Below, in pieces: positions 2,251-21,279 of a stretch of 38,895 nucleotides of DNA; the first letter of the stretch is position 1; every line of letters begins with the position of its first letter. Both the position numbers and the translations under genes were made by a program. The notes under the pieces were generated by a model. That model saw nothing but the letters and a program-made list of their open reading frames with translations. It had not been told where the DNA came from and did not search any database. This stretch comes from a bacterium (GTDB lineage Bacteria; Patescibacteriota; Minisyncoccia; Moranbacterales; UBA1568), in assembly GCA_021821305.1 (NCBI GenBank), contig JAKACP010000001.1, positions 707,526 through 746,420 of the forward strand. Direction: 5' to 3'.

Positions 2251-3209
2251 AGTTTCTCCGCTCCGCGAAGCTTCGCGCTCCGCGACCTCGGATTCCGATC
2301 GATCTCCTCGTCGCTCGGCCGTACGAATCGGGGCGAGAGCAACCTGAGCTCCGGCTTCCGTCCGCATCGGCATTCCGGAAACGCCGGAGGACACACGCAC
2401 CCTTTGGCCATTTCCGCGAACACCTTCTTCACGAGCGCATCCTCCCCCGAATGGAACGTGATCACCGCGATCCGCCCCCCGGGAGCGAGCATCGGCACCG
2501 CCGAACGGAGAAACCGTTCGATGACCCCGAGTTCGTCGTTCGTCTCCATCCGGATACCCTGGAACGTCCTCGTCGCCGGATGCAGCTTCATGCGCCGCGT
2601 CTCCACCGCCGAAAATGCGCCCTTCACGCACTCCGCGAGATCCGCCGTCCGCTCGAACACTTGTTCCTGACGTCGGGCGACGATCGCTCGGGCGATCTTT
2701 TTCGCCTTCGGCTCGCCGCCGTAGCGCCACAGTATCCGGACGAGGTCCGCCTCGTCGTATCCGTTCACGATATCGGCCGCGGTCTTCCCTCCGCTTCGAT
2801 CGAGCCGCATATCGAGCGGTCCGTCCGCAAGAAAGGAGAATCCCCGTTCGGGAGCATCCACCTGATCGGAGGAGAACCCGAAGTCGGCCAGTATCGCATC
2901 GACACCTTCATACCCGAGAGCATGGAGCGTTTCCCCGATACGGGAAAAATTTTCCCGCACGGCGACCAGCCGTTTCCCTTCGATCGCTTTCCGGAGAACC
3001 TCATCGGTTTCCGCCGACCGGAGAAAACGCTCCACCGCCTCGCCATCCGCATCGACCGCGACAACCCTCCCACCGGGGAGCACCGAAGAGAGCAATGCCC
3101 TCGTGTGCCCGCCGCCTCCGAGTGTCGCGTCGACCGCCACTGCGCCCTTGTGAAGGTTCAGCATCGCTACCGCCTCATCGAGCAGGACCGGAATGTGTCT
3201 CGTAGCCAT
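2247..3209 (-). CDS. rsmH: 16S rRNA m4C1402 methyltransferase RsmH (MraW)
   Basis: HIPVLLDE, DATLGGGGH, DFGFSSDQVD, RGFSF, GPLDMR, HPATRTFQGIR, ITFHSGED, NPRSRSAKLR. Confidence 0.97.
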   Translation of the reverse strand: MATRHIPVLLDEAVAMLNLHKGAVAVDATLGGGGHTRALLSSVLPGGRVVAVDADGEAVERFLRSAETDEVLRKAIEGKRLVAVRENFSRIGETLHALGYEGVDAILADFGFSSDQVDAPERGFSFLADGPLDMRLDRSGGKTAADIVNGYDEADLVRILWRYGGEPKAKKIARAIVARRQEQVFERTADLAECVKGAFSAVETRRMKLHPATRTFQGIRMETNDELGVIERFLRSAVPMLAPGGRIAVITFHSGEDALVKKVFAEMAKGCVCPPAFPECRCGRKPELRLLSPRFVRPSDEEIDRNPRSRSAKLRGAEKL

Positions 3210-3293
3210 ACAACCCAGGAATCAACAATGAAATCACTTTCTGCCTCCGTTTTCATTTTTGATTTCTGTTCTGCATCCGATCCGACGGAATCG

Positions 3294-3728
3294 CTAGTAC
3301 ACTCCGAGCTTCCCGAGTTCTTCCGCGATCTTGCCGGTGTTCTTTTCCGCGCCCGCCTTGTACGCCTTCCACTTCTCCTCACCCCAGATCTCGAGCCGAT
3401 TGTAGAGCCCGACGACGACGACGTTCTTGCGGAGACCGGCGTAATCCTTGAGGTAGTCGGGGATGAGGACGCGGCCCTGGCCGTCGAGCTCGACATCCGT
3501 CGCGCCCGCGAGCATGAGCCGGGTGAAACTGCGCGTCGACGATTCGCCGATCGGCAGACTGCCCAGTTTTTCGGCGAGCGTCTCCCACACCTTCATCGGA
3601 TAGACGAAGAGCGACGCATCGAGTCCGCGCGTCACGACGACGCGGCTGCCGAGTTCACTCCGGAATTTCGAAGGAAGCGCGACGCGCCGTTTCGGATCGA
3701 TGGAATGTGAGTACTCGCCGATAAACAT
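3294..3728 (-). CDS. mraZ: Division/cell wall cluster transcriptional repressor MraZ
   Basis: MFIGEYSHSIDPKRRVALPSKFR, DGQGRVLIP, VGLYNRLEIW. Start set at MFIGEY. Confidence 0.97.
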   Translation of the reverse strand: MFIGEYSHSIDPKRRVALPSKFRSELGSRVVVTRGLDASLFVYPMKVWETLAEKLGSLPIGESSTRSFTRLMLAGATDVELDGQGRVLIPDYLKDYAGLRKNVVVVGLYNRLEIWGEEKWKAYKAGAEKNTGKIAEELGKLGVY

Positions 3729-3735
3729 AGTTTCA

Positions 3736-3798
3736 CCACATTTCCCCACTTCTTAGTTCTTCCTCGACATTTTACGCCACTTCTCCTCTCCCTGTCAA
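3736..3798 (-). promoter_or_regulatory. mraZ promoter with MraZ-type GTGG direct repeats
   Basis: TTGACA (3798-3793), 18 nt, TAAAAT (3774-3769). GTGG/GTCG boxes at 3780, 3768, 3749 and 3739, the last two 10 nt apart, consistent with MraZ autoregulatory repeats. Confidence 0.65.
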
Positions 3799-3984
3799 CA
3801 CAAACGAAAAAAGGCTTGGAAAGCCTTTTTTTATAGGAGAAATGAGGGCTACGGGGAGGGAAAAGACCTTTTCCGCAAAAAATCGAAAAAGGCTGTCTGA
3901 AAGAAGCTTTCCCGAGGGGCACTGTATTAACAAGGATACGGACAAATATCATGCGATACCCCTCTTTCTTTCATCCCTCTACAT

Positions 3985-4641
3985 GTGCGTATGTCCTACG
4001 AAGGATTTCTCAGATATTCGGGAGGCGCGTACATAGCCGTCGGGCTCGGTCTTCTGCTGTTTCCGAAGGAATGGTTCCCCTCCTTTTACGATCCCGTGTT
4101 CATGGGATCGGTCGCCCTCGCTTCGCCTTTCCTCGTATACCTGCCGAAGATGTCCGTGAATGCCGACACGCCGGAGAAAAAACGTACCGTCATGAAAATA
4201 CGCGCCATGATAATGGCCTCGCTCATCATGGGCGGAATCGGCGAACTCGGACTCTACCAGCTGTATCGGATCGGGTTCGAATATGACAAGCTCGCCCACT
4301 TCACGATCTCGATGCTCCTGACGTTCATGTGCGTGGAAAGCCTCATGGCATGGAAACACTCCTCCTTCCGGAAGCTTCTCTGGTTGGTCGCTCCGTCCGT
4401 TCTGATCGCGGGAATCCTCTGGGAGGGATTGGAAGCCGCCTCGGATACGGTTTTCGGAACGGAGGTATGGGGCATCTACGGAAGTTTCATCGCCCGCGAC
4501 ACCCTGTGGGACATCTATTTCAACACGTTCGGAATACTCGCCGGCATGATCGCTCTTCTCACGCGGCATCCCCGAGCGCCGCGCGAGAACCGAAGCTTCA
4601 TCCGACACGTGACACGATACCGGGGCGCCTGCTCACGGTAG
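3985..4641 (+). CDS. Integral membrane protein (YjdF/DUF2238/VanZ-like)
   Basis: Several TM helices. YDKLAHF, ILWEGLE and DTLWDIYFN motifs are typical of this membrane superfamily. Start may be 3991. Confidence 0.65.
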   Translation: MRMSYEGFLRYSGGAYIAVGLGLLLFPKEWFPSFYDPVFMGSVALASPFLVYLPKMSVNADTPEKKRTVMKIRAMIMASLIMGGIGELGLYQLYRIGFEYDKLAHFTISMLLTFMCVESLMAWKHSSFRKLLWLVAPSVLIAGILWEGLEAASDTVFGTEVWGIYGSFIARDTLWDIYFNTFGILAGMIALLTRHPRAPRENRSFIRHVTRYRGACSR

Positions 4642-12612: not shown

Positions 12613-13353
12613 TCAGGATGTCGAGCCTTTGAGGTAGTGGTCGAGGGTGTAGATCCAGTTCTCGTCGTCCTCCTCGCCGCGCTCCCTCGCCATGACCTTC
12701 TGATTGAGGAGCCACGCGAGATAGCTCGCGTCCTCGGACGCGACTTTTTTCACATCCTCACCGGAATATTTCCCGAAATTGAATTTTCGGATGAGGATCG
12801 GGCGAGCGGACACCGCGAGCATCTCATGGAGCACCGCTCCCTCGTCGCCGAGCGTCCCGAGCATCTTCGTGAAATGGAAGTCGAACAGCGCGCGGAGCAC
12901 GCGCACATCGCCCAAGGCATCGTGCGCCGAGGCATCCTCGACGTCGAGGTCGTGGTAGTAGCGCAGGTACTGCAGATTGTATTTCGGGATCTCCCCCGTG
13001 ATATCGAGGTGATGCGCCACCTTGAAGGTGTCGATCATCCCCCCGACCGCGATCCCCTCGCGCGCGAGCATGTCCGCGTCGAATTTGGCATTGTGCGCGA
13101 CGAGGACGGCGCCCGAGGCGAAGATATCCGAGAGCTCCCGATGCATCTCCGATTCCGCGAACGGTGGGAACGCTCCCACCATCTTGTTCGTGATCCGCGT
13201 CACGACCATTGCGTCGATCGAGATCGGCACGGGCGGACAGAAAAGCGACTCGGCCTCCTGGCCGCCGAACTCGTACGCCACCTGGCACAGCCGGTCCTCC
13301 GGCCCGATGCCCGTCGTCTCCGTGTCGAGAAATATGAGTTTGGTCCTGTCCAT
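12613..13353 (-). CDS. DEDDh 3'-5' exonuclease, ExoX-like, with C-terminal FGKY (DUF3820-like) domain
   Basis: IFLDTETTG, VAHNAKFD, IDTF, AHDALGDV, FNFGKYSG...DASYLAWL. Confidence 0.9.
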   Translation of the reverse strand: MDRTKLIFLDTETTGIGPEDRLCQVAYEFGGQEAESLFCPPVPISIDAMVVTRITNKMVGAFPPFAESEMHRELSDIFASGAVLVAHNAKFDADMLAREGIAVGGMIDTFKVAHHLDITGEIPKYNLQYLRYYHDLDVEDASAHDALGDVRVLRALFDFHFTKMLGTLGDEGAVLHEMLAVSARPILIRKFNFGKYSGEDVKKVASEDASYLAWLLNQKVMARERGEEDDENWIYTLDHYLKGSTS

Positions 13354-13409
13354 AGGCTTTTCTTGATATATTTCTCTCCAGTATACACCTGTCCGGTCCA
13401 TCTGTCCGC

Positions 13410-13443
13410 AAAAAAAAACGGGATAGTCATAATGACTATACCC
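13410..13443 (-). terminator. Intrinsic-terminator-like hairpin with no adjacent upstream CDS on this strand
   Basis: GGGTATAGTCAT-T-ATGACTATCCCG followed by T9 on the minus strand. Confidence 0.6.
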
Positions 13444-13555
13444 TCAGGGCCTTGCAGAGAACCGCGGCGGACGCAAGGACGGAATGGAAAAAATTCCATC
13501 GTCAACTGTAGTACAGGGTACGGCACCTTCACAACCCGTTTCAGAGGAGACCATC

Positions 13556-14095
13556 ATGGCCAAGAAACCCCGTCGCACCGTCCCCGTACCCGCCTCGCTC
13601 GCCGAAGCCAACCACTCCCTCTTCCGCCTCGGTGCCATCGACCGCGCGGTCGCCGCCATCGAAAGCGGGCTCGAGGAAGAGATCGCCCGGCTTCGCAAGG
13701 AAGCCGAAGAAAAAAGCGCTCCCTTGCTCGCGGAACACGCCGATCTCGCGACCGGCCTCGAGGTCTTCGCCCGGGCCAACCGCGAGACGCTCCTCGCACG
13801 CGACAGGAAGTCCGTCCGGACCTCGGCCGGCACCTTCGGCTGGCGCGTCACTCCGTACAAGGTGGAGTTCCTGCGCGGCGCCGACAAGGTCCTCGCCGCG
13901 ATCAAGAAACTCAAGCTCAAGAAATATATCCGCGTCACGGAGTCGATCGACAAAAAAGCCCTGCTCAAGGACCGCCCCGTCATCGCCGGCGTGAAATACG
14001 CACGGCGCGAGGAATTCTTCTATGCAGTCTCCTCGGAGACCACGACGGATCCGGATGCGCCGGCCGATGCCGCCCTATTCGCCAAAACCGCCTAA
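13556..14095 (+). CDS. Mu Gam-like host-nuclease inhibitor (DNA end-binding) protein
   Basis: Long N-terminal coiled coil, then FARANRETLL..RKSVRTSAGTFGWR.TP, YIRVTESIDKKALL, IAGVKY..REEFFY. SD GAGGAG at 13544-13549. Confidence 0.85.
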   Translation: MAKKPRRTVPVPASLAEANHSLFRLGAIDRAVAAIESGLEEEIARLRKEAEEKSAPLLAEHADLATGLEVFARANRETLLARDRKSVRTSAGTFGWRVTPYKVEFLRGADKVLAAIKKLKLKKYIRVTESIDKKALLKDRPVIAGVKYARREEFFYAVSSETTTDPDAPADAALFAKTA

Positions 14096-14109: not shown

Positions 14110-14141
14110 CCCGTCAGTCATCGTACTGCCGGGCTTTTTTT
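14110..14141 (+). terminator. Intrinsic terminator of the gam-like gene
   Basis: CCCGTCAGT...ACTGCCGGG followed by CTTTTTTT. Confidence 0.65.
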
Positions 14142-14386
14142 CATATCTTCCCGATCAGTTCGAGCTTCTGGGCGCGGGAGAGCCGCTTGATACGGGATTC
14201 CTCGCGGGACGCCTCCGAACGATTCTCGAACGCTCGCGAGAAAACGAGCGAGACCGGTCTTCGCCCCCGCGTATATTTCGCCCCGAGCGTCGAACCGTTG
14301 TGCTCGAGAATCCGACGCTCCACATCGGTCGTGATGCCCACGTACAGCGTCTTGTCCGCACATTGGAGGATATAGAGGTGATACAT
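14141..14386 (-). CDS. GIY-YIG nuclease (UPF0213, YhbQ/YazA-like)
   Basis: YHLYILQCADKTLYVGITTDVERRILEHN..GAKYTRGRRPV..EASREESRIKRLSR. Confidence 0.92.
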   Translation of the reverse strand: MYHLYILQCADKTLYVGITTDVERRILEHNGSTLGAKYTRGRRPVSLVFSRAFENRSEASREESRIKRLSRAQKLELIGKI

Positions 14387-14495: not shown

Positions 14496-15932
14496 TTATG
14501 CCTGCAATATTTTCTTTAATCGATTCACCAAAAACTCGTCAAATCTATCCGGATCCTCCTTGCGCGTTCTAATCATCTCAATGAGATCGCCACCACCAAT
14601 TGGGAATATTAAGCACCTCTGAGCGAGAAAGTGTCTACGTGCTCTTTCGATATCTTTGTCCTGAACTTCTTTCCTTGATATTAGAAACACCAACTCTCTA
14701 CCATTTGCAAGAGTGTACGCCCTCCCCTGGTTGAATTCGTCGTTAGAAATTCTGCTACTATCATAGTTTTTCGCTTCAATAACCAGAAGTCCAGATTTGA
14801 TTTGCTGGTTTCTTATCATTTTGAAAAGTGGCGTGTTTGCACCATTTCCGAAGACAACGTCGTATCGAAAAATACCATCTACCGAACAATCCTCTCGTGT
14901 CCCGCTCGTTAGATGGCCATCATACAGCGCAGTAAAAATCTTTCTGAGAAACTCGGAAAATCTGCTAGCACCGCCTTTTCCAGAAGGGATTTTTTTAAGC
15001 TCCTCAATATAAGAACTCCAGTTTTCCTTTCCTTTTTTTCTTTTCTTACGCCGCTCATCATCAAAGATATTTGGGTTTCCAACATAATCAGCTACCAGCT
15101 CTGGTCTATTTTTGGCAATTTTTCTGATTGCAGCCGTCTTCTTACCGAAACGACTCTTCAAGTCATTTTCTACTTGCTTCAGAGAAACTTTCGGCTTCTT
15201 ACCTATTGATCTAGTTGTTATTATTCGCTGCTCCTCCTCGTGCTTTAAAAAATATCTCAAATAATTCTGATAAAATCCTTCCGGACTGAAAATTGGGATC
15301 TTCCGAACTAGGTGCTTGGGCACAAAAATCCTCGGTTCGCAAAATCCGTCTTCTTCGAAGTAGGGAAGCCTCACTCTTGGTATGGGGCGCCACGTAAATG
15401 AAAAGGGGTCTAATGCACGCTCAATTTGAATATCAGTCGTTTTAAGCCCGTAAAGTTTTACCTGTTCCTCTGTATATTGGATTAGATACGAAATACCAAA
15501 ATTCGCCACCAAATCTGAAAGCGTATCCGGACCAACTTTAGGAATAACGATCGACATCTTGGCAAGAGCCTCTACTCCGACTTCATGCACAGTTTCGTTA
15601 TCGAAGATTTCATTCTTTATTGCAATCGCTTTTTCCTCCGCCCCTCCCCTTCCATTTTTCCCATTTTTACAGTAACCGAGAGCTATATGGCTAACTTCCG
15701 GAAATTCAAGCGCTGCTTCAAGCTCATCTGAAGTTATCGCGCCCTCTCTATAAGAATTTAGGTAACGATTAAAGTATTCGTAAATAAGAGCCTGCACCTT
15801 GTGCCATCTGGTTTCTGGTGAATGATACAGGAGATTCAAATCAATATAAACAGGAGTGTCGTCCTTGCTGGGAAAAACGAAATCGACTTCATGCGGTTTA
15901 TACTCCTTTATCAATTCGCCGAGAGTAATCAT
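14496..15932 (-). CDS. Uncharacterised protein with C-terminal PD-(D/E)XK (restriction endonuclease-like) domain
   Basis: C-terminal FSEFLRKIF..RYDVVF..LVIEAKNY..EFNQGRAY. The N-terminal ~300 aa (DTPVYID, LGY..GxG, VGPDTLSD, YTEEQ) is not assigned to a named family. Confidence 0.7.
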   Translation of the reverse strand: MITLGELIKEYKPHEVDFVFPSKDDTPVYIDLNLLYHSPETRWHKVQALIYEYFNRYLNSYREGAITSDELEAALEFPEVSHIALGYCKNGKNGRGGAEEKAIAIKNEIFDNETVHEVGVEALAKMSIVIPKVGPDTLSDLVANFGISYLIQYTEEQVKLYGLKTTDIQIERALDPFSFTWRPIPRVRLPYFEEDGFCEPRIFVPKHLVRKIPIFSPEGFYQNYLRYFLKHEEEQRIITTRSIGKKPKVSLKQVENDLKSRFGKKTAAIRKIAKNRPELVADYVGNPNIFDDERRKKRKKGKENWSSYIEELKKIPSGKGGASRFSEFLRKIFTALYDGHLTSGTREDCSVDGIFRYDVVFGNGANTPLFKMIRNQQIKSGLLVIEAKNYDSSRISNDEFNQGRAYTLANGRELVFLISRKEVQDKDIERARRHFLAQRCLIFPIGGGDLIEMIRTRKEDPDRFDEFLVNRLKKILQA

Positions 15933-15945
15933 TTACATGGAAAAA

Positions 15946-16461
15946 TCAGATTAACCCTAATTCTTTAGCCCTGTAATATACCGCCTGCCCGGAAACTCTG
16001 AAGATAGATGCGATCCTGGCTTTCTTAAAGTCGATATCTTCCCTTATCGCATTCCATCTTTCAATAAAAATCTCCTCAGGCATCAGAAATGCCGCGGAAA
16101 AATGATCGCAAAACCTTTCTTCTCCGCTTGCGGAGTATATCTCCCCCTCGGAAAAACCAAAGGCTTTTTCGGAATTTCTGATAATATGTGCAATTTCATG
16201 ACACAACGTGAAGCGCTGCCGATACTCATAATCTCGACCGTTGACGAAAATCCTATACTCCCCGATTCCCGGATCAAAATACTCGAGACCAGAAACAGTA
16301 AACTCATCGGAATTCTTGAACGAAACAGTTATTCTTATGCCGAAATTTTCTTCTGTCCATCGAATCAGCGACAAGATGGATGGCATCGTGTCCCCGAGAC
16401 TGGAATATATGGCGCCTGCTGTTTGTTCGGCATCATTATTTATTTTTTCAAATCCATCCAT
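15946..16461 (-). CDS. ImmA/IrrE family metallo-endopeptidase
   Basis: RQRFTLCHEIAHI (HExxH), EERFCDHFSAAFLMP, C-terminal HTH IASIFRVSGQAVYYR. Confidence 0.92.
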   Translation of the reverse strand: MDGFEKINNDAEQTAGAIYSSLGDTMPSILSLIRWTEENFGIRITVSFKNSDEFTVSGLEYFDPGIGEYRIFVNGRDYEYRQRFTLCHEIAHIIRNSEKAFGFSEGEIYSASGEERFCDHFSAAFLMPEEIFIERWNAIREDIDFKKARIASIFRVSGQAVYYRAKELGLI

Positions 16462-16464
16462 ATG

Positions 16465-16791
16465 TCATTTCAAACGGTCAATCATACCCTCGATAATACG
16501 AACGTCCTCATCATTGCTTATGTTATATTTTTTCCTCAAATATACCTTGAGAGGTGCATGATCATCCTGTTCAGCATCAATGACTTTCAGCATATCGAGA
16601 ATCTCCTTCACTTTGACATTGAATCCTTTAGCCAGCTTGATAATCGTAGCGAGAGACACATTCCTACTATCGAAATCCCCTTTTTCGATTCGAGAGAGAA
16701 AACCCTTGGACAAATCAGTTTTTTCGGCCAACTGTTCAAGCGTATCAGCCGAGTTTTTCCTGTAATCCGCAACGAGATTGCTGAGTTTCAT
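16465..16791 (-). CDS. XRE-family helix-turn-helix repressor (ImmR/CapH-like)
   Basis: TLEQLAEKTDLSKGFLSRIEKG..NVSLATIIKLAKGF. Sits 3 nt upstream of the peptidase. Confidence 0.92.
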   Translation of the reverse strand: MKLSNLVADYRKNSADTLEQLAEKTDLSKGFLSRIEKGDFDSRNVSLATIIKLAKGFNVKVKEILDMLKVIDAEQDDHAPLKVYLRKKYNISNDEDVRIIEGMIDRLK

Positions 16792-16795
16792 ACTG

Positions 16796-16842
16796 GTAAA
16801 ATAAGTTTACTTTAGATTACACGAGGCGCAGAAGGTTGTCAA
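16796..16842 (-). promoter_or_regulatory. Promoter and candidate operator of the XRE-peptidase-nuclease operon
   Basis: TTGACA (16842-16837), 17 nt, TAATCT. Inverted repeat GTAAA-N5-TTTAC (16796-16810) overlaps AAGT-N2-ACTT just downstream of the -10. Confidence 0.55.
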
Positions 16843-16998
16843 GAATGCTTTATTATAAGCAAAAAAGGAGCTACAGGCTCCTTTTCCCATTCAAGCTTCC
16901 AAAGATTCTCACTATGTATCCGCCGGATTTCTTATTCACATCGCTCTCACATATGCGGATAACTTTCCAGCTTTCTTTTTTCAATTACCTATTCCTCT

Positions 16999-19317
16999 TT
17001 ACAATGGAAGTTTCTCCCAATCACCCCAATCACCTTTCTCGCATTTGTCCCAGTTGTAAGATTTCTCGCTATTAAGAAGCCACCCGCCGTTGTGTTCAAT
17101 GGCAATGCCTCCAAAGAGGTCTTTCCGATTTTGCGAGGCAATCCATGCTTGAAGGGCTTCCGCTTTGGCCTTGGTCGTCGTCTGACCTTCGCGATCGGTT
17201 TTGTGTTTCACTTCGAAAGTACCGATACTCCCATCGGAAAAACGGATGATATAGTCCGGATAAAAGGTATTGACCCCATCCGAATACTCGTATCGGATGC
17301 CGAAGTAGTCCTGCTTATTCTCGCCGTTTTTCCACCACCAAGAAATCTGCGTCGCATTCGAGTCGAGAAACTTCTCGAAATGTTGTTCCGGTTCTGAGCG
17401 GTCCGTGCCGAGATAACATTTATCATACGCATATGGCGCGATGGTCGAAACCAGCTCGTCGGTATGCTCGTTGAAAAACTGTTCCTCCGGTAAATCGAAT
17501 TCGTAGAAGCGTTCGCTTGCGGCGACCTTCTCACGGACTTCCCTGTCCTTCACGGACTTATATTCGTCGATCGCCTTGGAAACGATGCTCTCGAAAATTG
17601 CCCGATTGCCATTGTGCACGAAAATCTTCTGTATCAACAGTATTTCCTCGTGCCAGTTCTCTGATCCGAGGCTCCTCTTGAACCAACTGTAGATGGCGGT
17701 CTTCACGGTCGGGACGGACCGCTTCATGCCACGGAAAGTTCCGAGGTTGTTCTTGATGGTCTGTTCGAACAGCGTCTGTAGGTCATTCCCGGCGATAGTC
17801 AGACGTGCGAGCGCGTCCGGTGTGATCTTTCCCTCCAAGTCATCGAACGACTCCCCGTCCAATTTCGTGTCGGCGATGATTTCCTGCTCGTACCGCTTCA
17901 CGTCCAAGGATATCCCGCTCTTCTCAACGAGTTCCACGCACTGCTGAGGAAGCATCCGACTTCCGTCGATGCCGAAGTGTTCGTTTGCGACCCGACTGAA
18001 GACGGCGGTAAAGCTTGAGGTTACATCCCCATAATCGACGCGGGCTTTGTAATAAGAAACAAGCTTGATCGGCTGATAGCTCGGAATTCGATTCGCTTTG
18101 AGATGTTTGATGATGTTCGGATTGTATTCCTCCTTCTTCACCATGATGCTCTGCACGTTGGTGTAGATGTAACCGGTATTGAGACTCTCGTCATCATAAT
18201 GTTTCTGCTCCGGCATACGAAGGATACGACCAACTGTTTGGATCTCGAAAATTGCGCTTTTCGATTCGCGGAATTTCACCAAGATGTGTGCCCGCGGACA
18301 ATCCCACCCTGTATCGATAGCCTGCTTGAAAATGAGAAATTCAATCTCGTTGTCCGACTCGGAAATCCAGTCGATTGTGTCGGATTTCTGCTCCGAAAGC
18401 CAGATTGCAAGTTTGCGATTCTTCTCGGTCACGCCCTTCCCGGAAAGGAATTTTTTCACGGCCGCGATCTTTTCCTCACCAGCCTCGGCAGTCGGAATCT
18501 GGATAAGGACGAGCGGATTCACGGAAGAACCCATATGAACGAACGCATCCTTCAATTCGAGCCGCTTACGATATGCGGCTTCAAGTACGATTTCCTGGGA
18601 ATCCGTTTCGCTCTCTATGATCTTGCCAATTCCCTCGTTGATGATCAGTTCTTTTTTGATCATCCCCTCCTCGATAACATCCTTGGAATTCACCTTCACA
18701 TACCCCGCAGACTTGTCGATGATTTCATCGGCGCTCGGCTTGAGCCTTGGTGTGGCGCTCATTTCGATGACAACGTCCGCGGCGATTTCGTCTCGGAGTT
18801 CGTTGGTGCGTGCCGCGGTGGAACCGATATGACTCTCATCAATGATCATGATAATCCGTCGCTGTTCCCTTGTTTTGGAAAGAACATCGCGGAAGCTTAA
18901 GTTCTCTCCATCTTTCATAAGGAGGTTTTTCCACTCGCCCTCCTTGTCCTTCGACCGGAGCTTTTCCCAGTTCGCTACTACAACCTCATTGCGGACTATA
19001 CGCCTCCGACCTCCGTTGAATTCCTCCTCGACAAGGGAAACCCGCGGCGACCCATCAAAAATACGCTCGAGGCTGTGTTTGCTCTGCAGATGCAGGTCGC
19101 CCTTGCCGATACTCATCCAGACGAAACAAAGATCCTCTTCCGGAAGTTCCCGGATGATGCTTTCGATAAATTTAGCGGTCATGATGGTCTTACCACTCCC
19201 TGTCGGCGCCTGGAAGACACACACCTCGCCATCCCCCGGACGGTCAAGGAGATGTTTTACGGAAGTAGTCAGTTCATCGACCGCTCGATCCTGATAGGCT
19301 TTGAGTTCAATATTCAT
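16999..19317 (-). CDS. res: Type III restriction enzyme, Res subunit (SF2 helicase plus PD-(D/E)XK nuclease)
   Basis: QAPTGSGKT, IIDESH, EMSATP, GWDCPRA, QTVGRILR, FYPDYI..FEVK. Start MNIEL overlaps the mod stop. Confidence 0.93.
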   Translation of the reverse strand: MNIELKAYQDRAVDELTTSVKHLLDRPGDGEVCVFQAPTGSGKTIMTAKFIESIIRELPEEDLCFVWMSIGKGDLHLQSKHSLERIFDGSPRVSLVEEEFNGGRRRIVRNEVVVANWEKLRSKDKEGEWKNLLMKDGENLSFRDVLSKTREQRRIIMIIDESHIGSTAARTNELRDEIAADVVIEMSATPRLKPSADEIIDKSAGYVKVNSKDVIEEGMIKKELIINEGIGKIIESETDSQEIVLEAAYRKRLELKDAFVHMGSSVNPLVLIQIPTAEAGEEKIAAVKKFLSGKGVTEKNRKLAIWLSEQKSDTIDWISESDNEIEFLIFKQAIDTGWDCPRAHILVKFRESKSAIFEIQTVGRILRMPEQKHYDDESLNTGYIYTNVQSIMVKKEEYNPNIIKHLKANRIPSYQPIKLVSYYKARVDYGDVTSSFTAVFSRVANEHFGIDGSRMLPQQCVELVEKSGISLDVKRYEQEIIADTKLDGESFDDLEGKITPDALARLTIAGNDLQTLFEQTIKNNLGTFRGMKRSVPTVKTAIYSWFKRSLGSENWHEEILLIQKIFVHNGNRAIFESIVSKAIDEYKSVKDREVREKVAASERFYEFDLPEEQFFNEHTDELVSTIAPYAYDKCYLGTDRSEPEQHFEKFLDSNATQISWWWKNGENKQDYFGIRYEYSDGVNTFYPDYIIRFSDGSIGTFEVKHKTDREGQTTTKAKAEALQAWIASQNRKDLFGGIAIEHNGGWLLNSEKSYNWDKCEKGDWGDWEKLPL

Positions 19318-21010
19318 AGATTTCTTGGTAGATATCCAAAATCTTCTGCGGAATGGGGTCCAAACGTACACCGGACCACATGGAAAAATCATCCTTATCC
19401 AAACCAAGCGGATCGAGCGTGAAGCAGTAAAGCAGCTTCTCCCCATCCAACTTGTCCAACTCTTTCTTGAGACTCTTCAACGCGGCGCGTTCGATGGAAT
19501 AATATACCGCCATGAGCCGATCGTTCTGTCGGAAAATCCGATAGTCGTCGCTGCTTGCCAACTCGTCGAATATCCCTTCCCGCAGGCACAGCATCTCCGT
19601 GCACTCCCGCGCGACACGGATCTTAAGCTCGTCCCGGTTGACACTCTTTTTCACGAACTCGGTCTTGAAATACTTAAGATTGCCGCCGAGACCTTCTACC
19701 TTCGAGCCCTTTTCCGTCTTATAACCAGCCATCACATTTTTTACTCGAGGATAACAAACATCTACACAAATCCCATTTTCATTATTAGTAGTCAGAATAA
19801 ATGACCTATGGCCACCATCCTTATTCAATTCAAGAATCGCGTGGCCAGTCGTGCCGGAGCCAGCAAAGAAATCCAATACCACTGCATCCTTCTTATGTTG
19901 AAGAAGAAGTTCAAGTGGTTTAATAACGGCATGCAAAGACTTCGGGTAATCAAAGGCCTTCCTTTTTCCGAGAATTTTTTGCAATAAAACCGTCCCATGG
20001 GAAGATGCATCGAACATTGGATCAATCCAGATTGTCTTCGGCTTCCTACCATCTTTTATCCTGTCCTTCATTAAAACGGTATACCCGTTTTTTGTCTTCT
20101 TTATAACCATATCGCCACGCGCCACAGCAAGCATAAGCGAAGGGCGAGTCTGGCGCCAGACTCGTTTTTTCCCCGAGCTATCTATTGGAATAATTTCAAC
20201 ACAGCCGGGTATATTTTCTATGCCAATATAACCATTTTCCTCATTGTAGTAAATCGGATAATGCGAATTCGGACGCTCTTCAGGAGTAGAAAGGCCGCCA
20301 CTTCGTCGAAATGGGAGCAGGCGATATCTTGATATATCATCTTCAAACTTGAAAACCGCCGCCTGTTCATCGGTAAGCGGCATATTTTTCAACTCGGCCG
20401 TTTCTGCATTTTTTGCATAAAAAAGAATGTACTCGTGAGAAGTAGCGAAAAACTTATTCGTGGTGCGACCCCGCGGATTTATTTCGATTGCCAGGATGCC
20501 GACCCTGTTCTGTTCCCCAAAAATCTCATCTAACAATAAACCTATTGGAAACAACTCATAGTCATCAATAGTCAACACAAAAAAACCATCCTCTTTAAGA
20601 AGGGCGCGAGCTAAACGCAACCGTTTACTCATGAATGAGAGCCACTTGCTATGGCGAAATGAGTCATCAAGATCGACGTAATCATTGTTGTAACGCCAGC
20701 TTTTGTTTCCGGTATTGTATGGAGGATCGGCATAAATAACATCTATCTTTCCAGCGTGGGTATAATTCAAAACCGATAAGGCGTGATAATTATCACCCTC
20801 AATCAAAATGTTCGTCGGCTTGCTCGAATCAGTTGCAATTTCCTTGCCCTTGATTTCTTTCAAAACCGGCAGTGCATTTTCTGCCTCCTTTTCGAATTGC
20901 TCTTTCGTCCGTTCCTCATCCCAAATCAACCCGTATTTTTTTCGGGATTCCAGTTTTTCAATAGCCTTAAGCAAGTCCTCTTTTTCAAGTTTTGAATAAT
21001 CTTTTGCCAT
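19307..21010 (-). CDS. mod: Type III R-M methyltransferase, Mod subunit (beta-class N6-adenine)
   Basis: KKYGLIW, NILIEGDN, IYADPPYNTG, FRHSKWLSFM, FDYPKS, VLDFFAGSGTTGHA. Confidence 0.95.
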   Translation of the reverse strand: MAKDYSKLEKEDLLKAIEKLESRKKYGLIWDEERTKEQFEKEAENALPVLKEIKGKEIATDSSKPTNILIEGDNYHALSVLNYTHAGKIDVIYADPPYNTGNKSWRYNNDYVDLDDSFRHSKWLSFMSKRLRLARALLKEDGFFVLTIDDYELFPIGLLLDEIFGEQNRVGILAIEINPRGRTTNKFFATSHEYILFYAKNAETAELKNMPLTDEQAAVFKFEDDISRYRLLPFRRSGGLSTPEERPNSHYPIYYNEENGYIGIENIPGCVEIIPIDSSGKKRVWRQTRPSLMLAVARGDMVIKKTKNGYTVLMKDRIKDGRKPKTIWIDPMFDASSHGTVLLQKILGKRKAFDYPKSLHAVIKPLELLLQHKKDAVVLDFFAGSGTTGHAILELNKDGGHRSFILTTNNENGICVDVCYPRVKNVMAGYKTEKGSKVEGLGGNLKYFKTEFVKKSVNRDELKIRVARECTEMLCLREGIFDELASSDDYRIFRQNDRLMAVYYSIERAALKSLKKELDKLDGEKLLYCFTLDPLGLDKDDFSMWSGVRLDPIPQKILDIYQEIYEY

Positions 21011-21014
21011 ATCT

Positions 21015-21185
21015 TTATTTCTTCCAATCCTTTATCATCACCCCACCGTGAACCCGTTTCACGACCACCTTCTGTTTTTCCTTCCAGCCAAGCTCACGAA
21101 CCAATTCGATCGGGATCGTCAGCCCGATGGACTTTCCGCCCAATTTGGTGAGTTTTCTGATATTCTTCTCGTTTTCCTTTTTCAT
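21015..21185 (-). CDS. AbrB/MazE/SpoVT-like DNA-binding micro-protein, 56 aa
   Basis: Below the ORF-track cutoff. Manual translation MKKENEKNIRKLTKLGGKSIGLTIPIELVRELGWKEKQKVVVKRVHGGVMIKDWKK. Stop lies 4 nt before the mod ATG. Confidence 0.8.
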   Translation of the reverse strand: MKKENEKNIRKLTKLGGKSIGLTIPIELVRELGWKEKQKVVVKRVHGGVMIKDWKK

Positions 21186-21207
21186 GACATCTCCATGTTA
21201 TTTCCAG

Positions 21208-21279
21208 CGCCCTGAGGAGGAGTCGAACCTCCGAATCCTCGATAGAAGCGAGGCGGTTTATCCATTAGCCTACCAGGGC
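21208..21279 (-). tRNA. tRNA-Arg(TCT)
   Basis: Acceptor stem GCCCTGG/TCAGGGC, D loop AATGGATA, anticodon arm CCTCG-CTTCTAT-CGAGG, T arm GGAGG-TTCGACT-CCTCC. CCA not encoded. Confidence 0.93.

What the first reader, a model, noticed from the sequence alone, without database searches (positions are those of the whole stretch)
14496..16842. Candidate new defence module: XRE repressor, ImmA/IrrE protease and uncharacterised nuclease, appended to Type III R-M
Seen: three tightly spaced co-oriented genes (gaps of 3 and 13 nt) with their own TTGACA-17-TAATCT promoter and an operator-like inverted repeat. They are AT-rich and lie directly downstream of res. There is no integrase or divergent excision operon for the pair to control. 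Established: HTH plus HExxH protease pairs (ImmR/ImmA, DdrO/IrrE, CapH/CapP) are repressor-cleavage switches triggered by DNA damage or ssDNA, and CapH/CapP controls anti-phage operons. Inference: infection or DNA damage derepresses the 478-aa protein (unassigned N-terminal domain plus D..EAK nuclease). It could act as an abortive-infection or modification-dependent backup to the R-M system.
Basis: partly seen in the sequence, partly recalled or inferred. Interest (0 to 1): 0.75.

Follow-up and report, generated by a model that had tools for sequence, protein, structure and literature searches.

The report
Damage-switch operon driving an uncharacterised nuclease
Next to a restriction-modification system, in a stretch of foreign DNA, sits a three-gene operon: a repressor, the protease expected to cut it, and a nuclease from a widespread but untested family whose members are repeatedly wired to DNA-damage switches.

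Summary
The three minus-strand genes are real: XRE repressor 16465-16791, M78/ImmA peptidase 15946-16461 (HExxH and Glu intact) and a 478-aa protein 14496-15932, with gaps of 3 and 13 nt. They lie in a 6.8-kb low-GC island (0.40-0.50 against 0.60) at tRNA-Arg, behind a hairpin that ends the Type III res gene. The TTGACA-17-TAATCT site is present but weak. The "operator" repeat is no better than chance.

The 478-aa protein is not unassigned. It is Pfam DUF8370 plus an Mrr-like D..ExK nuclease domain, and it matches PADLOC candidate PDC-M36A (3.5e-28). The PDC-M36B partner is absent. No paper was found on this family.

None of the four loci of close relatives carries the XRE/protease pair. However, 8 of 29 family contexts I examined have a cleavable-repressor or SOS gene beside the DUF8370 gene. 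These are CapH/CapP on three Acinetobacter plasmids, XRE plus ImmA in Rhodococcus, LexA in two Saccharibacteria loci and UmuDC in a cyanobacterial plasmid. In the nearest sampled locus, LexA occupies the slot that XRE+ImmA fill here.

Best reading: a repressor-cleavage switch gating a probable defence nuclease. I rate it a new variant of a known kind.

The parts
16465..16791 (-). XRE-family repressor, 108 aa. HTH at about residues 9-63, plus a roughly 40-aa C-terminal tail. L81-K82 aligns with F82-R83 of a CapH relative.
   Evidence: Pfam HTH_3 2.4e-10. PADLOC capH 7.7e-8 over residues 3-108, model positions 7-99 of 103. Pairwise alignment with the CapH of plasmid locus L007. The CapH cleavage site F82/R83 comes from Lau et al.. 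The cleavage site proposed here is inference.
15946..16461 (-). ImmA/IrrE-type M78 zinc peptidase, 171 aa, single domain. HExxH at codons 16186-16200; third ligand E115 at 16117-16119.
   Evidence: Pfam Peptidase_M78 3e-20. PADLOC capP 2.3e-18, covering only model positions 3-153 of 242. H88, E89, H92 and E115 are invariant in 38 aligned relatives. Codon positions.
14496..15932 (-). 478-aa effector gene: DUF8370 N-terminal domain plus a C-terminal PD-(D/E)xK nuclease domain.
   Evidence: PADLOC PDC-M36A 3.5e-28, residues 14-455. Precomputed PF28123, named DUF8370. PHROG 27295 5.1e-24. 671 relative clusters at E<=1e-3.
15048..15932 (-). DUF8370 domain, residues 1 to about 295. Function unknown. 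Invariant F18, E79, G94, D136, S139, P205; nearly invariant D17, D25, D31, D140.
   Evidence: Alignment A2 of 86 sequences. Stand-alone forms of about 300 aa match this part only. No look-alike outside PF28123 in the Atlas.
15033..15077 (-). Least conserved, strongly basic linker, residues 286-300 (NPNIFDDERRKKRKK).
   Evidence: Column information 0.83 bits, the lowest of all 15-residue bins. Sequence.
14499..15023 (-). Mrr-like PD-(D/E)xK nuclease domain, residues about 304-478. D358 (14859-14861), E386 (14775-14777), K388 (14769-14771).
   Evidence: D358, E386, K388, N389 and Q402 are invariant in A2. 27 of 86 relatives weakly hit Mrr_cat, best E 8.2e-4, but the window protein itself does not. 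Atlas structural neighbours carry Mrr_cat. PHROG 31260 hits residues 306-465. The same domain is fused to Dcm in Bacillus plasmids.
16814..16842 (-). Promoter-like site: TTGACA, 17 nt, TAATCT.
   Evidence: Read. Not listed by the consensus scan because the -10 matches 3 of 6. Function not shown.
16797..16814 (-). Imperfect palindrome TAAAGTAA-AC-TTATTTTA between the -10 and the start codon. It is the only operator candidate.
   Evidence: A repeat of this quality arises in 15% of shuffles, so it is not evidence on its own.
16863..16885 (-). Hairpin terminator of res. It makes the trio a separate transcription unit.
   Evidence: 9-nt perfect arms. Folds with an 11-bp stem, -15 kcal/mol, followed by U residues.
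16999..19317 (-). Type III res gene. The ORF runs to 19446; the probable start at 19317 overlaps the end of mod.
   Evidence: Pfam ResIII 2e-17. PADLOC REase_III 1.3e-18. The start is inferred from the domain position.
19307..21010 (-). Type III mod methyltransferase gene.
   Evidence: Pfam N6_N4_Mtase 2.2e-30. PADLOC MTase_III 2.4e-82.
21015..21185 (-). 56-aa AbrB/MazE-fold protein directly upstream of mod. It is the first gene of the island.
   Evidence: Pfam MazE_antitoxin 1.7e-7. Read.
21207..21279 (-). tRNA-Arg(TCT). The low-GC island begins at its 3' end.
   Evidence: ARAGORN. Rfam tRNA 55.8 bits. GC values by gene.

Best explanation
A horizontally acquired three-gene operon encodes a repressor-cleavage switch that gates a nuclease.

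Proposed mechanism:
1. The XRE protein represses the operon's own promoter.
2. A stress signal, most likely DNA damage or phage replication, activates the short ImmA-type zinc peptidase.
3. The peptidase cuts the repressor in its C-terminal tail, possibly at L81/K82.
4. Transcription of all three genes then rises.
5. The DUF8370 / Mrr-like PD-(D/E)xK protein cleaves DNA.

The operon lies just after the terminator of a Type III R-M operon in the same island. It probably serves as an inducible second layer of defence. R-M cleavage products or phage DNA damage could be the trigger.

Shown here: the genes, their domains, intact catalytic motifs, operon spacing, foreign composition, and the recurrent linkage of this effector family to cleavable repressors.

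Inferred: repression, cleavage, the trigger, nuclease activity and phage protection.
For: Domains and motifs. Gaps of 3 and 13 nt, and a terminator upstream.

Non-orthologous replacement of the regulator:
- In an N-domain tree of 27 family members, the window protein sits in a 100/100 clade with three Saccharibacteria loci.
- Its nearest row is L004 (56% identity), but the branch pairing the two has only 80/59 support.
- L004 has LexA (LexA_DNA_bind 1.8e-16, Peptidase_S24 3.8e-20) ending 4 nt before the DUF8370 start. That is the position XRE+ImmA hold here.
- L003 has a LexA-S24-methylase ORF divergent from a GIY-YIG + DUF8370 pair.

Independent recruitment elsewhere:
- capH (3e-28, 4e-27, 2.5e-27) plus capP (9e-67, 3e-60, 2e-60) lie divergent from DUF8370 genes on three Acinetobacter plasmids.
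- Two of these plasmids share only 44% (CapP) and 47% (DUF8370) identity.
- An XRE plus a 184-aa M78 peptidase lie beside one on a Rhodococcus plasmid.
- UmuD/UmuC lie directly upstream on a Leptolyngbya plasmid.
- Total: 8 of 29 contexts examined.
- The window's peptidase and XRE are only about 30% identical, locally, to the Acinetobacter ones. The link therefore arose more than once.

Defence context: R-M, Gabija, McrBC, TIR/SIR2 or similar genes lie near at least 12 of the 29.

Precedent: CapH/CapP, ImmR/ImmA and DdrO/IrrE switches. A predicted Xre / COG2856 / toxin three-component system. R-M / regulator / effector sandwiches for CapK+CapS.
Against: - No operator beyond chance, and a weak -10.
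- 21 of 29 contexts have no such regulator. 0 of the 4 loci of close relatives has an XRE/M78 pair among the 19 flanking ORFs scanned.
- None of the 40 other ImmA hits shares a longest-contig length with any of the 35 other DUF8370 hits. This is a rough test.
- The peptidase has no sensor domain, so the trigger is unknown.
- The genes are co-oriented, whereas every CapH/CapP case reported by Lau et al. is divergent.
- No member of DUF8370 / PDC-M36 has a published test. Searches for PDC-M36, PF28123 and DUF8370 found 0 papers.
- The PADLOC partner PDC-M36B is absent: 0 of 9 window ORFs scanned.
- The window protein itself gives no Mrr_cat hit.
- No structural model could be made.
Confidence: 0.55

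Rival explanations
1. Three-component toxin-antitoxin or RosmerTA-like module. XRE plus peptidase together act as a split RmrA-type antitoxin that neutralises the nuclease toxin directly or by tight autoregulation. The module stabilises the island, or fires when antitoxin supply fails. Transcriptional induction by DNA damage is not the main point.
For: - The peptidase hits 13 RmrA models (best 1.1e-11) and the XRE hits two (2.4e-4 and 6.8e-3).
- NCBIfam gives a weak hit to the spr1629 repressor/antitoxin family, far below its cut-off.
- RmrA pairs an ImmA protease domain, often with an N-terminal HTH, with diverse toxins (PMC10440598, passages).
- Makarova et al. predicted an Xre / COG2856 / toxin three-component system (PMC2701414, passages).
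- DUF8370 genes lie among TA genes on several plasmids.
Against: - RmrA is a fused protein; here there are two genes.
- The nearest relative replaces the pair with LexA, a pure transcriptional repressor.
- Most DUF8370 genes stand without any antitoxin-like neighbour (21 of 29 contexts lack any such regulator). This argues that the protein is not toxic without a partner.
Confidence: 0.2
2. A DNA-damage (SOS-type) inducible nuclease serving repair, recombination or competition between mobile elements, not phage defence.
For: - LexA lies upstream in L004, and a LexA fusion in L003.
- UmuD/UmuC lie upstream, and a UvrC-annotated gene is nearby, in L017.
- GIY-YIG genes are adjacent in L003 and L028, and in host-GC DNA in the window.
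- Many stand-alone DUF8370 proteins sit on small plasmids. On one 4.56-kb plasmid it is the only annotated gene besides a RepL-like gene.
Against: - R-M, Gabija, McrBC and TIR/SIR2 genes lie near at least 12 of 29 contexts.
- PADLOC lists the family as a defence candidate.
- The nuclease domain also occurs fused to a cytosine methyltransferase, as in restriction enzymes.
Confidence: 0.12
3. Leftover immunity region of a decayed integrative element or prophage (ImmR/ImmA type). Its adjacency to the nuclease gene is incidental.
For: - Repressor, then protease, then a third gene in one operon is the ICEBs1 order as I recall it; no call checked this.
- The island abuts a tRNA gene.
- Phage families match the peptidase (phrog_2439, 1.8e-24).
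Against: - No integrase, excisionase or structural phage gene in the island, nor among the 28 flanking window ORFs scanned.
- No att-like repeat of the tRNA end.
- The 13-nt gap and similar GC (0.40-0.43) tie the nuclease gene to the pair.
- The same kind of linkage recurs elsewhere.
Confidence: 0.05
4. The peptidase activates the effector itself. It would cut the poorly conserved basic linker (residues 286-300) to release the nuclease domain from an inhibitory DUF8370 domain.
For: - The linker is the least conserved segment.
- A 2026 preprint discussion mentions protease sensors that convert operonic effectors from zymogens (10.64898/2026.05.16.725639, Discussion).
- The two domains occur separately in nature.
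Against: - M78 peptidases of this type with a known substrate cleave HTH repressors.
- An XRE substrate is encoded next door.
- LexA replaces the pair in the nearest relative.
Confidence: 0.05

Closest known systems
CapH + CapP (regulators of CBASS, DISARM and other immune operons; Lau et al. 2022 preprint)
   Same: An HTH repressor with a C-terminal tail plus an HExxH zinc peptidase next to a defence-type gene. The window proteins hit the capH and capP models. True CapH/CapP pairs flank DUF8370 genes on three Acinetobacter plasmids.
   Different: The peptidase lacks the linker and GAF domains, and hence the ssDNA groove. The genes are co-oriented with the effector in one operon instead of divergent.
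ImmR + ImmA of ICEBs1 and phage phi105
   Same: A short single-domain M78 peptidase (about 170 aa) encoded right after its XRE repressor. The switch responds to DNA damage (the length of ImmA is recalled).
   Different: No integrase or excision genes to control. The third gene is a nuclease.
RosmerTA, and the predicted Xre / COG2856 / toxin three-component system
   Same: HTH plus ImmA-type protease joined to a variable toxic effector. Defence role shown for some RosmerTA systems.
   Different: The regulator is split into two genes. The effector type (DUF8370 plus an Mrr-like nuclease domain) is not among the RosmerTA or COG2856-linked effectors named in the passages I read (PIN and RelE toxins, and a membrane-depolarising RmrT).
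PADLOC candidate system PDC-M36 (A + B)
   Same: The effector matches PDC-M36A nearly end to end (3.5e-28).
   Different: The archetype locus (Leptolyngbya plasmid: M36A 5.5e-245 plus two M36B genes) has small B genes that are missing here. It has UmuDC rather than XRE/ImmA upstream. PDC systems are untested candidates.
CapK + CapS loci sandwiched between an R-M operon and a second immune operon
   Same: The order is R-M, then a damage-responsive regulator pair, then a second effector. The proposed logic is that R-M damage primes a later layer (PMC13373217, passages).
   Different: A different regulator family (kinase plus STAS-wHTH) and different effectors.
Mrr-type and other Type IV restriction enzymes
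   Same: The architecture is an N-terminal non-catalytic or reader-like domain plus a C-terminal Mrr-like D..ExK nuclease. That this is the usual Type IV layout is recalled.
   Different: The N-terminal domain has no detectable relative outside DUF8370 and carries invariant acidic residues. Modification dependence is untested.

Membership tests
CapH/CapP regulator pair | XRE-type HTH repressor with a C-terminal dimerisation tail | tested here: met
   The capH model matches residues 3-108, model positions 7-99 of 103, E 7.7e-8. This is sequence level only.
CapH/CapP regulator pair | HExxH zinc peptidase with a third glutamate ligand | tested here: met
   H88, E89, H92 and E115 are invariant in 38 sequences and present in the window protein.
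CapH/CapP regulator pair | Peptidase carries the HTH-like linker and GAF domain that form the ssDNA groove | tested here: not met
   The protein is 171 aa. The match covers only positions 3-153 of the 242-position capP model. Domain layout from Lau et al. and the 2026 preprint.
CapH/CapP regulator pair | Pair lies upstream of, and on the opposite strand to, the regulated operon | tested here: not met
   All three genes are on the minus strand, with gaps of 3 and 13 nt. Rule.
CapH/CapP regulator pair | ssDNA-stimulated cleavage of the repressor | not testable with these tools
ImmR/ImmA switch of integrative elements | Short single-domain M78 peptidase encoded beside and after its XRE repressor | tested here: met
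ImmR/ImmA switch of integrative elements | Controls integrase or excision genes of a mobile element | tested here: not met
   No integrase or recombinase family in the 28 flanking window ORFs or in the island genes.
RosmerTA (RmrT/RmrA) | Single antitoxin protein with HTH and ImmA protease domains | tested here: not met
   There are two separate genes. RmrA models hit the peptidase (best 1.1e-11) and the XRE (2.4e-4) separately.
RosmerTA (RmrT/RmrA) | Adjacent toxin that is neutralised by the antitoxin | not testable with these tools
   Needs toxicity and neutralisation assays.
PADLOC PDC-M36 | PDC-M36A protein | tested here: met
   PDLC04597 3.5e-28, residues 14-455 against model positions 19-431 of 457.
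PADLOC PDC-M36 | PDC-M36B protein next to A | tested here: not met
   0 of 9 ORFs around the gene match. The island ends 109 nt after the gene. M36B is seen only in L017.
Pfam DUF8370 (PF28123) | Match to the family model | tested here: met
   Precomputed PF28123.1 on the window's own protein. The name is given. The local Pfam copy lacks this model.
PD-(D/E)xK / Mrr_cat nuclease | D ... (D/E)xK catalytic motif in a conserved core | tested here: met
   D358, E386 and K388 are invariant in 86 sequences.
PD-(D/E)xK / Mrr_cat nuclease | Significant match to the Mrr_cat model or fold | tested here: inconclusive
   The window protein gives no hit. 27 of 86 relatives hit weakly (best E 8.2e-4). Atlas TM scores are 0.35-0.38 to Mrr_cat proteins. 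No PDB sequence hit. No model of my own could be made.
Type IV (modification-dependent) restriction enzyme | Cleaves only modified DNA through a reader domain | not testable with these tools
   The N-domain has no known relative.
Type III R-M (the neighbour) | Mod methyltransferase plus Res helicase-nuclease in one operon | tested here: met
   MTase_III 2.4e-82 and REase_III 1.3e-18. ResIII 2e-17. The genes overlap.

The most novel reading that the evidence does not exclude
DUF8370 may define a large, untested class of "damage-gated" nucleases. Its members are interchangeably placed under three unrelated kinds of cleavable repressor: LexA, short XRE+ImmA pairs, and CapH+CapP. They would act as an inducible second line behind restriction-modification. 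The DUF8370 domain would be a new sensor or second catalytic domain. In the small genomes of Patescibacteria, where few defences are known, such a module could be a main inducible defence.
Probability: 0.3. Interest if true: 0.65.

Novelty: new variant of a known kind. Interest (0 to 1): 0.45.

Why it matters
Repressor-cleavage switches are known to gate CBASS, DISARM and mobile-element excision. This case adds an effector family of at least 671 sequence clusters for which my three name searches found no paper. It also shows that evolution has wired this family to DNA-damage switches several times, with LexA and XRE+ImmA swapped between close relatives.

This gives a simple, testable handle on an unknown domain: induce the operon, then look for what the nuclease cuts. 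It also bears on the proposal that R-M systems prime later defence layers through the damage they cause.

The close relatives are in Patescibacteria. [quoted passage not shown]

Tried and rejected
- **Structure.** No model and no fold search were possible.
- **Complex.** Complex prediction for peptidase plus XRE was unavailable.
- **PDB by sequence profile.** One chance-level hit (E 0.87) with A1 and none with A2.
- **Phage records.** No tblastn match with the window protein or with P0039. Three PHROG families do match.
- **Is the XRE an R-M control (C) protein?** PADLOC Control_protein hits at 1.4e-8, but only over the HTH (residues 17-70). The gene lies after the res terminator and is fused in an operon with a peptidase. 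Rejected.
- **Is the effector LdgA or DdgA,** the Patescibacteria-restricted defence genes of PMC12366544? Rejected on size. The ldgA construct is under 300 nt and the whole Dallas construct is 815 nt.
- **att repeat of the tRNA 3' end at the far island border.** None convincing.
- **A 14-nt exact repeat** (15935-15948 and 19378-19391). By my estimate this is near chance for 7.5 kb. Not pursued.
- **Internal promoter for the nuclease gene.** A 9-of-12 site at 16002-15975 is one of 11 sites against 9.4 expected. Not evidence.
- **A second homologue search with alignment A2** added no named or new proteins.
- **Terminator after the nuclease gene.** None found.
Full report
**What is in the sequence**

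On the minus strand, one search lists three ORFs: 16465-16791 (108 aa), 15946-16461 (171 aa) and 14496-15932 (478 aa). The sequence shows gaps of 3 nt and 13 nt.

Upstream lies the end of a Type III res gene. After it comes a hairpin (16863-16885, 9-nt perfect arms). It folds with an 11-bp stem and a U tail. The trio is therefore a separate transcription unit.

TTGACA (16842-16837), a 17-nt spacer and TAATCT (16819-16814) follow. The -10 matches the consensus at only 3 of 6, so the scan did not list the site. That scan found 11 promoter-like sites against 9.4 expected.

The only perfect repeat is the terminator. The one palindrome near the start (16814-16797, 7 of 8) appears in 15% of shuffles.

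**The island**

GC is 0.40-0.43 for the trio, 0.50 for res, 0.44 for mod and 0.46 for a 56-aa AbrB/MazE-fold gene. It is 0.60 outside.

The island runs from the 3' end of tRNA-Arg(TCT) (21207-21279) to about 14390. I found no att-like repeat. There is no integrase among the 28 flanking ORFs or among the island genes.

The host is probably a Patescibacteria (CPR) bacterium. This is an inference from three observations:
- All close relatives of the effector and the peptidase that carry a source name come from that group.
- The protein is on a contig of 826,099 bases.
- The flanking genes include type IV pilus parts and DUF5671.

**The regulators**

The 108-aa protein is an XRE HTH (HTH_3 2.4e-10). 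It matches the PADLOC capH model end to end (7.7e-8).

The 171-aa protein is an M78 peptidase (3e-20). H88, E89, H92 and E115 are invariant in 38 relatives.

It matches capP (2.3e-18), but only over model positions 3-153 of 242. According to Lau et al. (preprint 10.1101/2022.04.27.489752; passages and section 12) and Calloji et al. (preprint 10.64898/2026.05.16.725639; abstract and Discussion), CapP has a peptidase domain, an HTH-like linker and a GAF domain. ssDNA binds in the groove between the peptidase and GAF domains. The window protein lacks that part. It is ImmA-like, not CapP-like, and its trigger cannot be read from homology.

Lau et al. also state that every capH/capP pair they found is divergent from the regulated operon. 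Here the pair is co-oriented with it.

In a pairwise alignment with a true CapH, L81-K82 of the window protein falls on F82-R83. That is the site at which E. coli CapH is cut. This is a lead only.

**The effector**

The local Pfam and NCBIfam copies give nothing. The protein collection carries the precomputed family PF28123, which the ESM Atlas names DUF8370.

PADLOC matches PDC-M36A at 3.5e-28 over residues 14-455. PHROG 27295 (unknown function) matches at 5.1e-24.

Relatives:
- The word-indexed search found 36 proteins, including the window's own. All but one partial sequence are 473-496 aa. The 35 relatives are 44-62% identical. The few that carry a source name, and the genome loci that encode four of them, are from Patescibacteria.
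- The exhaustive search of representatives found 671 clusters at E<=1e-3 and 164 at E<=1e-10. Most are about 480 aa at about 25% identity. There are also forms of about 300 aa that hold only the N-terminal part, and forms with only the C-terminal part.

In an 86-sequence alignment, F18, E79, G94, D136, S139, P205, D358, E386, K388, N389 and Q402 are invariant. The least conserved stretch is the basic linker, residues 286-300.

The C-terminal part is a PD-(D/E)xK nuclease of Mrr type:
- D358...E386-x-K388 is invariant.
- 27 of 86 relatives hit Mrr_cat weakly, and 7 hit HSDR_N_2. The window protein itself does not hit either.
- Atlas structural neighbours for residues 228-478 carry Mrr_cat.
- The same domain is fused to cytosine methyltransferases on Bacillus plasmids.

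The N-terminal DUF8370 domain has no look-alike outside its own family and no PDB relative by sequence. Other family members carry PDDEXK_3 or DUF8371 in place of this C-terminal domain. DUF8370 is therefore the constant part and the C-terminus is exchangeable.

I could not fold the protein.

**Neighbourhoods**

I examined 29 contexts of DUF8370 genes:
- the window;
- 23 plasmid records, out of 48 distinct records hit.

I chose the plasmid records by rank and variety, so they are not a random sample. A twenty-fourth record holds only the nuclease-methylase fusion and is not counted. A twin of one Acinetobacter plasmid was not counted either.

Among the 19 flanking ORFs of the four loci of close relatives, none is an XRE or an M78 peptidase. 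Instead:
- L004 has LexA ending 4 nt before the DUF8370 start.
- L003 has an ORF with LexA DNA-binding, S24 and methylase domains. It is divergent from a GIY-YIG + DUF8370 pair and lies next to an MvaI/BcnI endonuclease gene.
- L002 has DUF2188 (PDC-S16) upstream and a RelA/SpoT protein (PDC-S33) downstream.
- L001 has a frameshifted copy between DUF2726 and DUF4145 genes.

Further away in the family:
- Three Acinetobacter plasmids carry strong capH + capP pairs divergent from a stand-alone DUF8370 gene. Two of these plasmids share only 44% and 47% identity in CapP and DUF8370. The arrangement is therefore old.
- A Rhodococcus plasmid has an XRE divergent from, and a 184-aa M78 peptidase next to, its DUF8370 gene.
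- A Leptolyngbya plasmid, the archetype of PDC-M36 (M36A 5.5e-245 plus two M36B genes), has UmuD and UmuC directly upstream.

In total, 8 of 29 contexts have a cleavable-repressor or SOS gene within three genes. Five of these are XRE+M78 pairs.

At least 12 of 29 contexts have R-M or other defence genes nearby. These include Gabija and McrBC, TIR and SIR2, EcoRII/Dcm/Vsr, and other R-M sets.

The remaining 21 contexts show no such regulator. A very close relative of one CapH/CapP-linked gene sits beside an HTH + RelE pair instead.

**Tree**

An N-domain tree of 27 rows leaves out L001, which is frameshifted, and L011/L018, which spans the record origin.

The window protein falls in a 100/100 clade with L004, L003 and L002. 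L004, the LexA case, is its nearest row at 56% identity, although the branch pairing the two has only 80/59 support.

Within one clade of four, the slot upstream of the gene is filled by XRE+ImmA, by LexA, by a divergent LexA fusion, or by an unrelated gene. LexA is a self-cleaving repressor, and XRE+ImmA is the two-protein version of the same device. I consider this replacement the strongest argument that the pair is a transcriptional damage switch for the nuclease gene.

The window's peptidase and XRE are only about 30% identical, over short stretches, to the Acinetobacter ones, and about 24% to the Rhodococcus peptidase. The linkage therefore arose independently.

A rough co-occurrence check went the other way. 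None of the 40 other ImmA hits shares a longest-contig length with any of the 35 other DUF8370 hits. This exact trio was not seen elsewhere.

**Mechanism**

I think the operon is autorepressed by XRE. A stress signal activates the peptidase, the repressor is cut, the operon is induced, and the nuclease acts on DNA.

Only the parts list and the comparative pattern are shown here. Every step of the mechanism is inferred.

The position after an R-M operon matches what is described for CapK+CapS. [quoted passage not shown] The authors propose that R-M damage primes later layers (PMC13373217, passages).

The rivals are:
- a split RosmerTA or three-component Xre / COG2856 / toxin module (PMC10440598 and PMC2701414, passages);
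- an SOS-type repair or element-competition nuclease;
- a decayed element's immunity region;
- zymogen activation of the effector.

**What is known**

Full-text searches for "PDC-M36", "PF28123" and "DUF8370" found no paper. A search for ImmA together with anti-phage, repressor and defense island (papers from 2022 on) added nothing relevant.

The Patescibacteria-restricted defence genes ldgA and ddgA of PMC12366544 are far too short to be this protein (section 10 and supplement file 6).

The kind of system is known: a repressor-cleavage switch plus a defence or toxin effector. The effector family is already flagged as a candidate and as a DUF. What is new is this combination, its co-oriented layout with a sensor-less peptidase, and the repeated wiring of DUF8370 genes to damage switches. 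I rate it a new variant of a known kind, of moderate interest.

**Left open**
- bioRxiv supplements were closed. The CapH/CapP operon list of Lau et al. may bear on novelty.
- Cluster-member names were unavailable.
- There is no structure or complex prediction.

Noticed in passing
window 21015-21185 (-): A 56-aa AbrB/MazE-fold protein (PF04014, 1.7e-7) is the first gene of the island, 4 nt upstream of mod. It may be the controller of the Type III R-M operon.
   Followed up: partly
L003 5665-7530 (-): One uninterrupted 621-aa ORF joins a LexA DNA-binding domain, an S24 peptidase and an N4/N6 DNA methylase (PADLOC MTase_II 7e-131). It lies next to an MvaI/BcnI endonuclease gene. This would be an R-M methylase fused to a self-cleaving repressor, unless it is an assembly artefact.
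   Followed up: no
L014 (Bacillus cereus 4,560-bp plasmid) and L008-L010, L016, L019-L024, L026, L029, L030: Stand-alone DUF8370 proteins of about 300 aa, without a nuclease domain, are common cargo of small plasmids. On L014 it is the only annotated gene besides a RepL-like gene. In Actinomycetota plasmids a conserved co-oriented gene of about 135 aa with no Pfam family precedes it (L016, L023, L024, L030). Two loci also carry DUF4192, and one of them an ArdC-like gene as well. An anti-defence or plasmid-maintenance role for the short form is not excluded.
   Followed up: partly
L025 (Bacillus cereus plasmid) 2373-4061; hits H53, H54: The C-terminal nuclease domain of the family (35% identical to P0039 residues 298-460) is fused to a DNA cytosine methyltransferase.
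   Followed up: no
L002 7757-7987 and L015 4718-4897: Small PADLOC candidate genes sit directly upstream of DUF8370 genes: DUF2188 (PDC-S16, 9e-25) in L002 and PDC-S38 (4e-18) in L015. Lau et al. report DUF2188 operons among those linked to CapH/CapP.
   Followed up: no
window 14141-14386 (-); L003 7609-7965; L028 2195-3388; L017 7830-8447: GIY-YIG-type nuclease genes lie next to or near DUF8370 genes in four contexts. In the window the GIY-YIG gene has host GC (0.585), so there the adjacency may be chance.
   Followed up: partly
window 12613-14095: Host-GC genes beside the island encode an ExoX/DEDDh-like exonuclease (also PADLOC PDC-S48, 1.3e-10) and a Mu Gam-like DNA-end-binding protein (4.9e-27).
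   Followed up: no
L001 8001-9523: The DUF8370 homologue of this Patescibacteria contig is split into two overlapping ORFs (304 and 209 aa). This is a frameshift or a pseudogene.
   Followed up: no
window 15935-15948 and 19378-19391: An exact 14-nt direct repeat (ACATGGAAAAATCA on the plus strand). One copy lies in the ImmA-nuclease junction and the other near the mod-res junction. By my estimate this is near chance for the region.
   Followed up: no
L028 1-4871: On a Paenarthrobacter plasmid, a DNA methyltransferase, a DEAD-box helicase, a GIY-YIG/T5orf172 nuclease and a 496-aa DUF8370 protein form one tightly packed co-oriented set. It may be a different multi-gene system built around DUF8370.
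   Followed up: no
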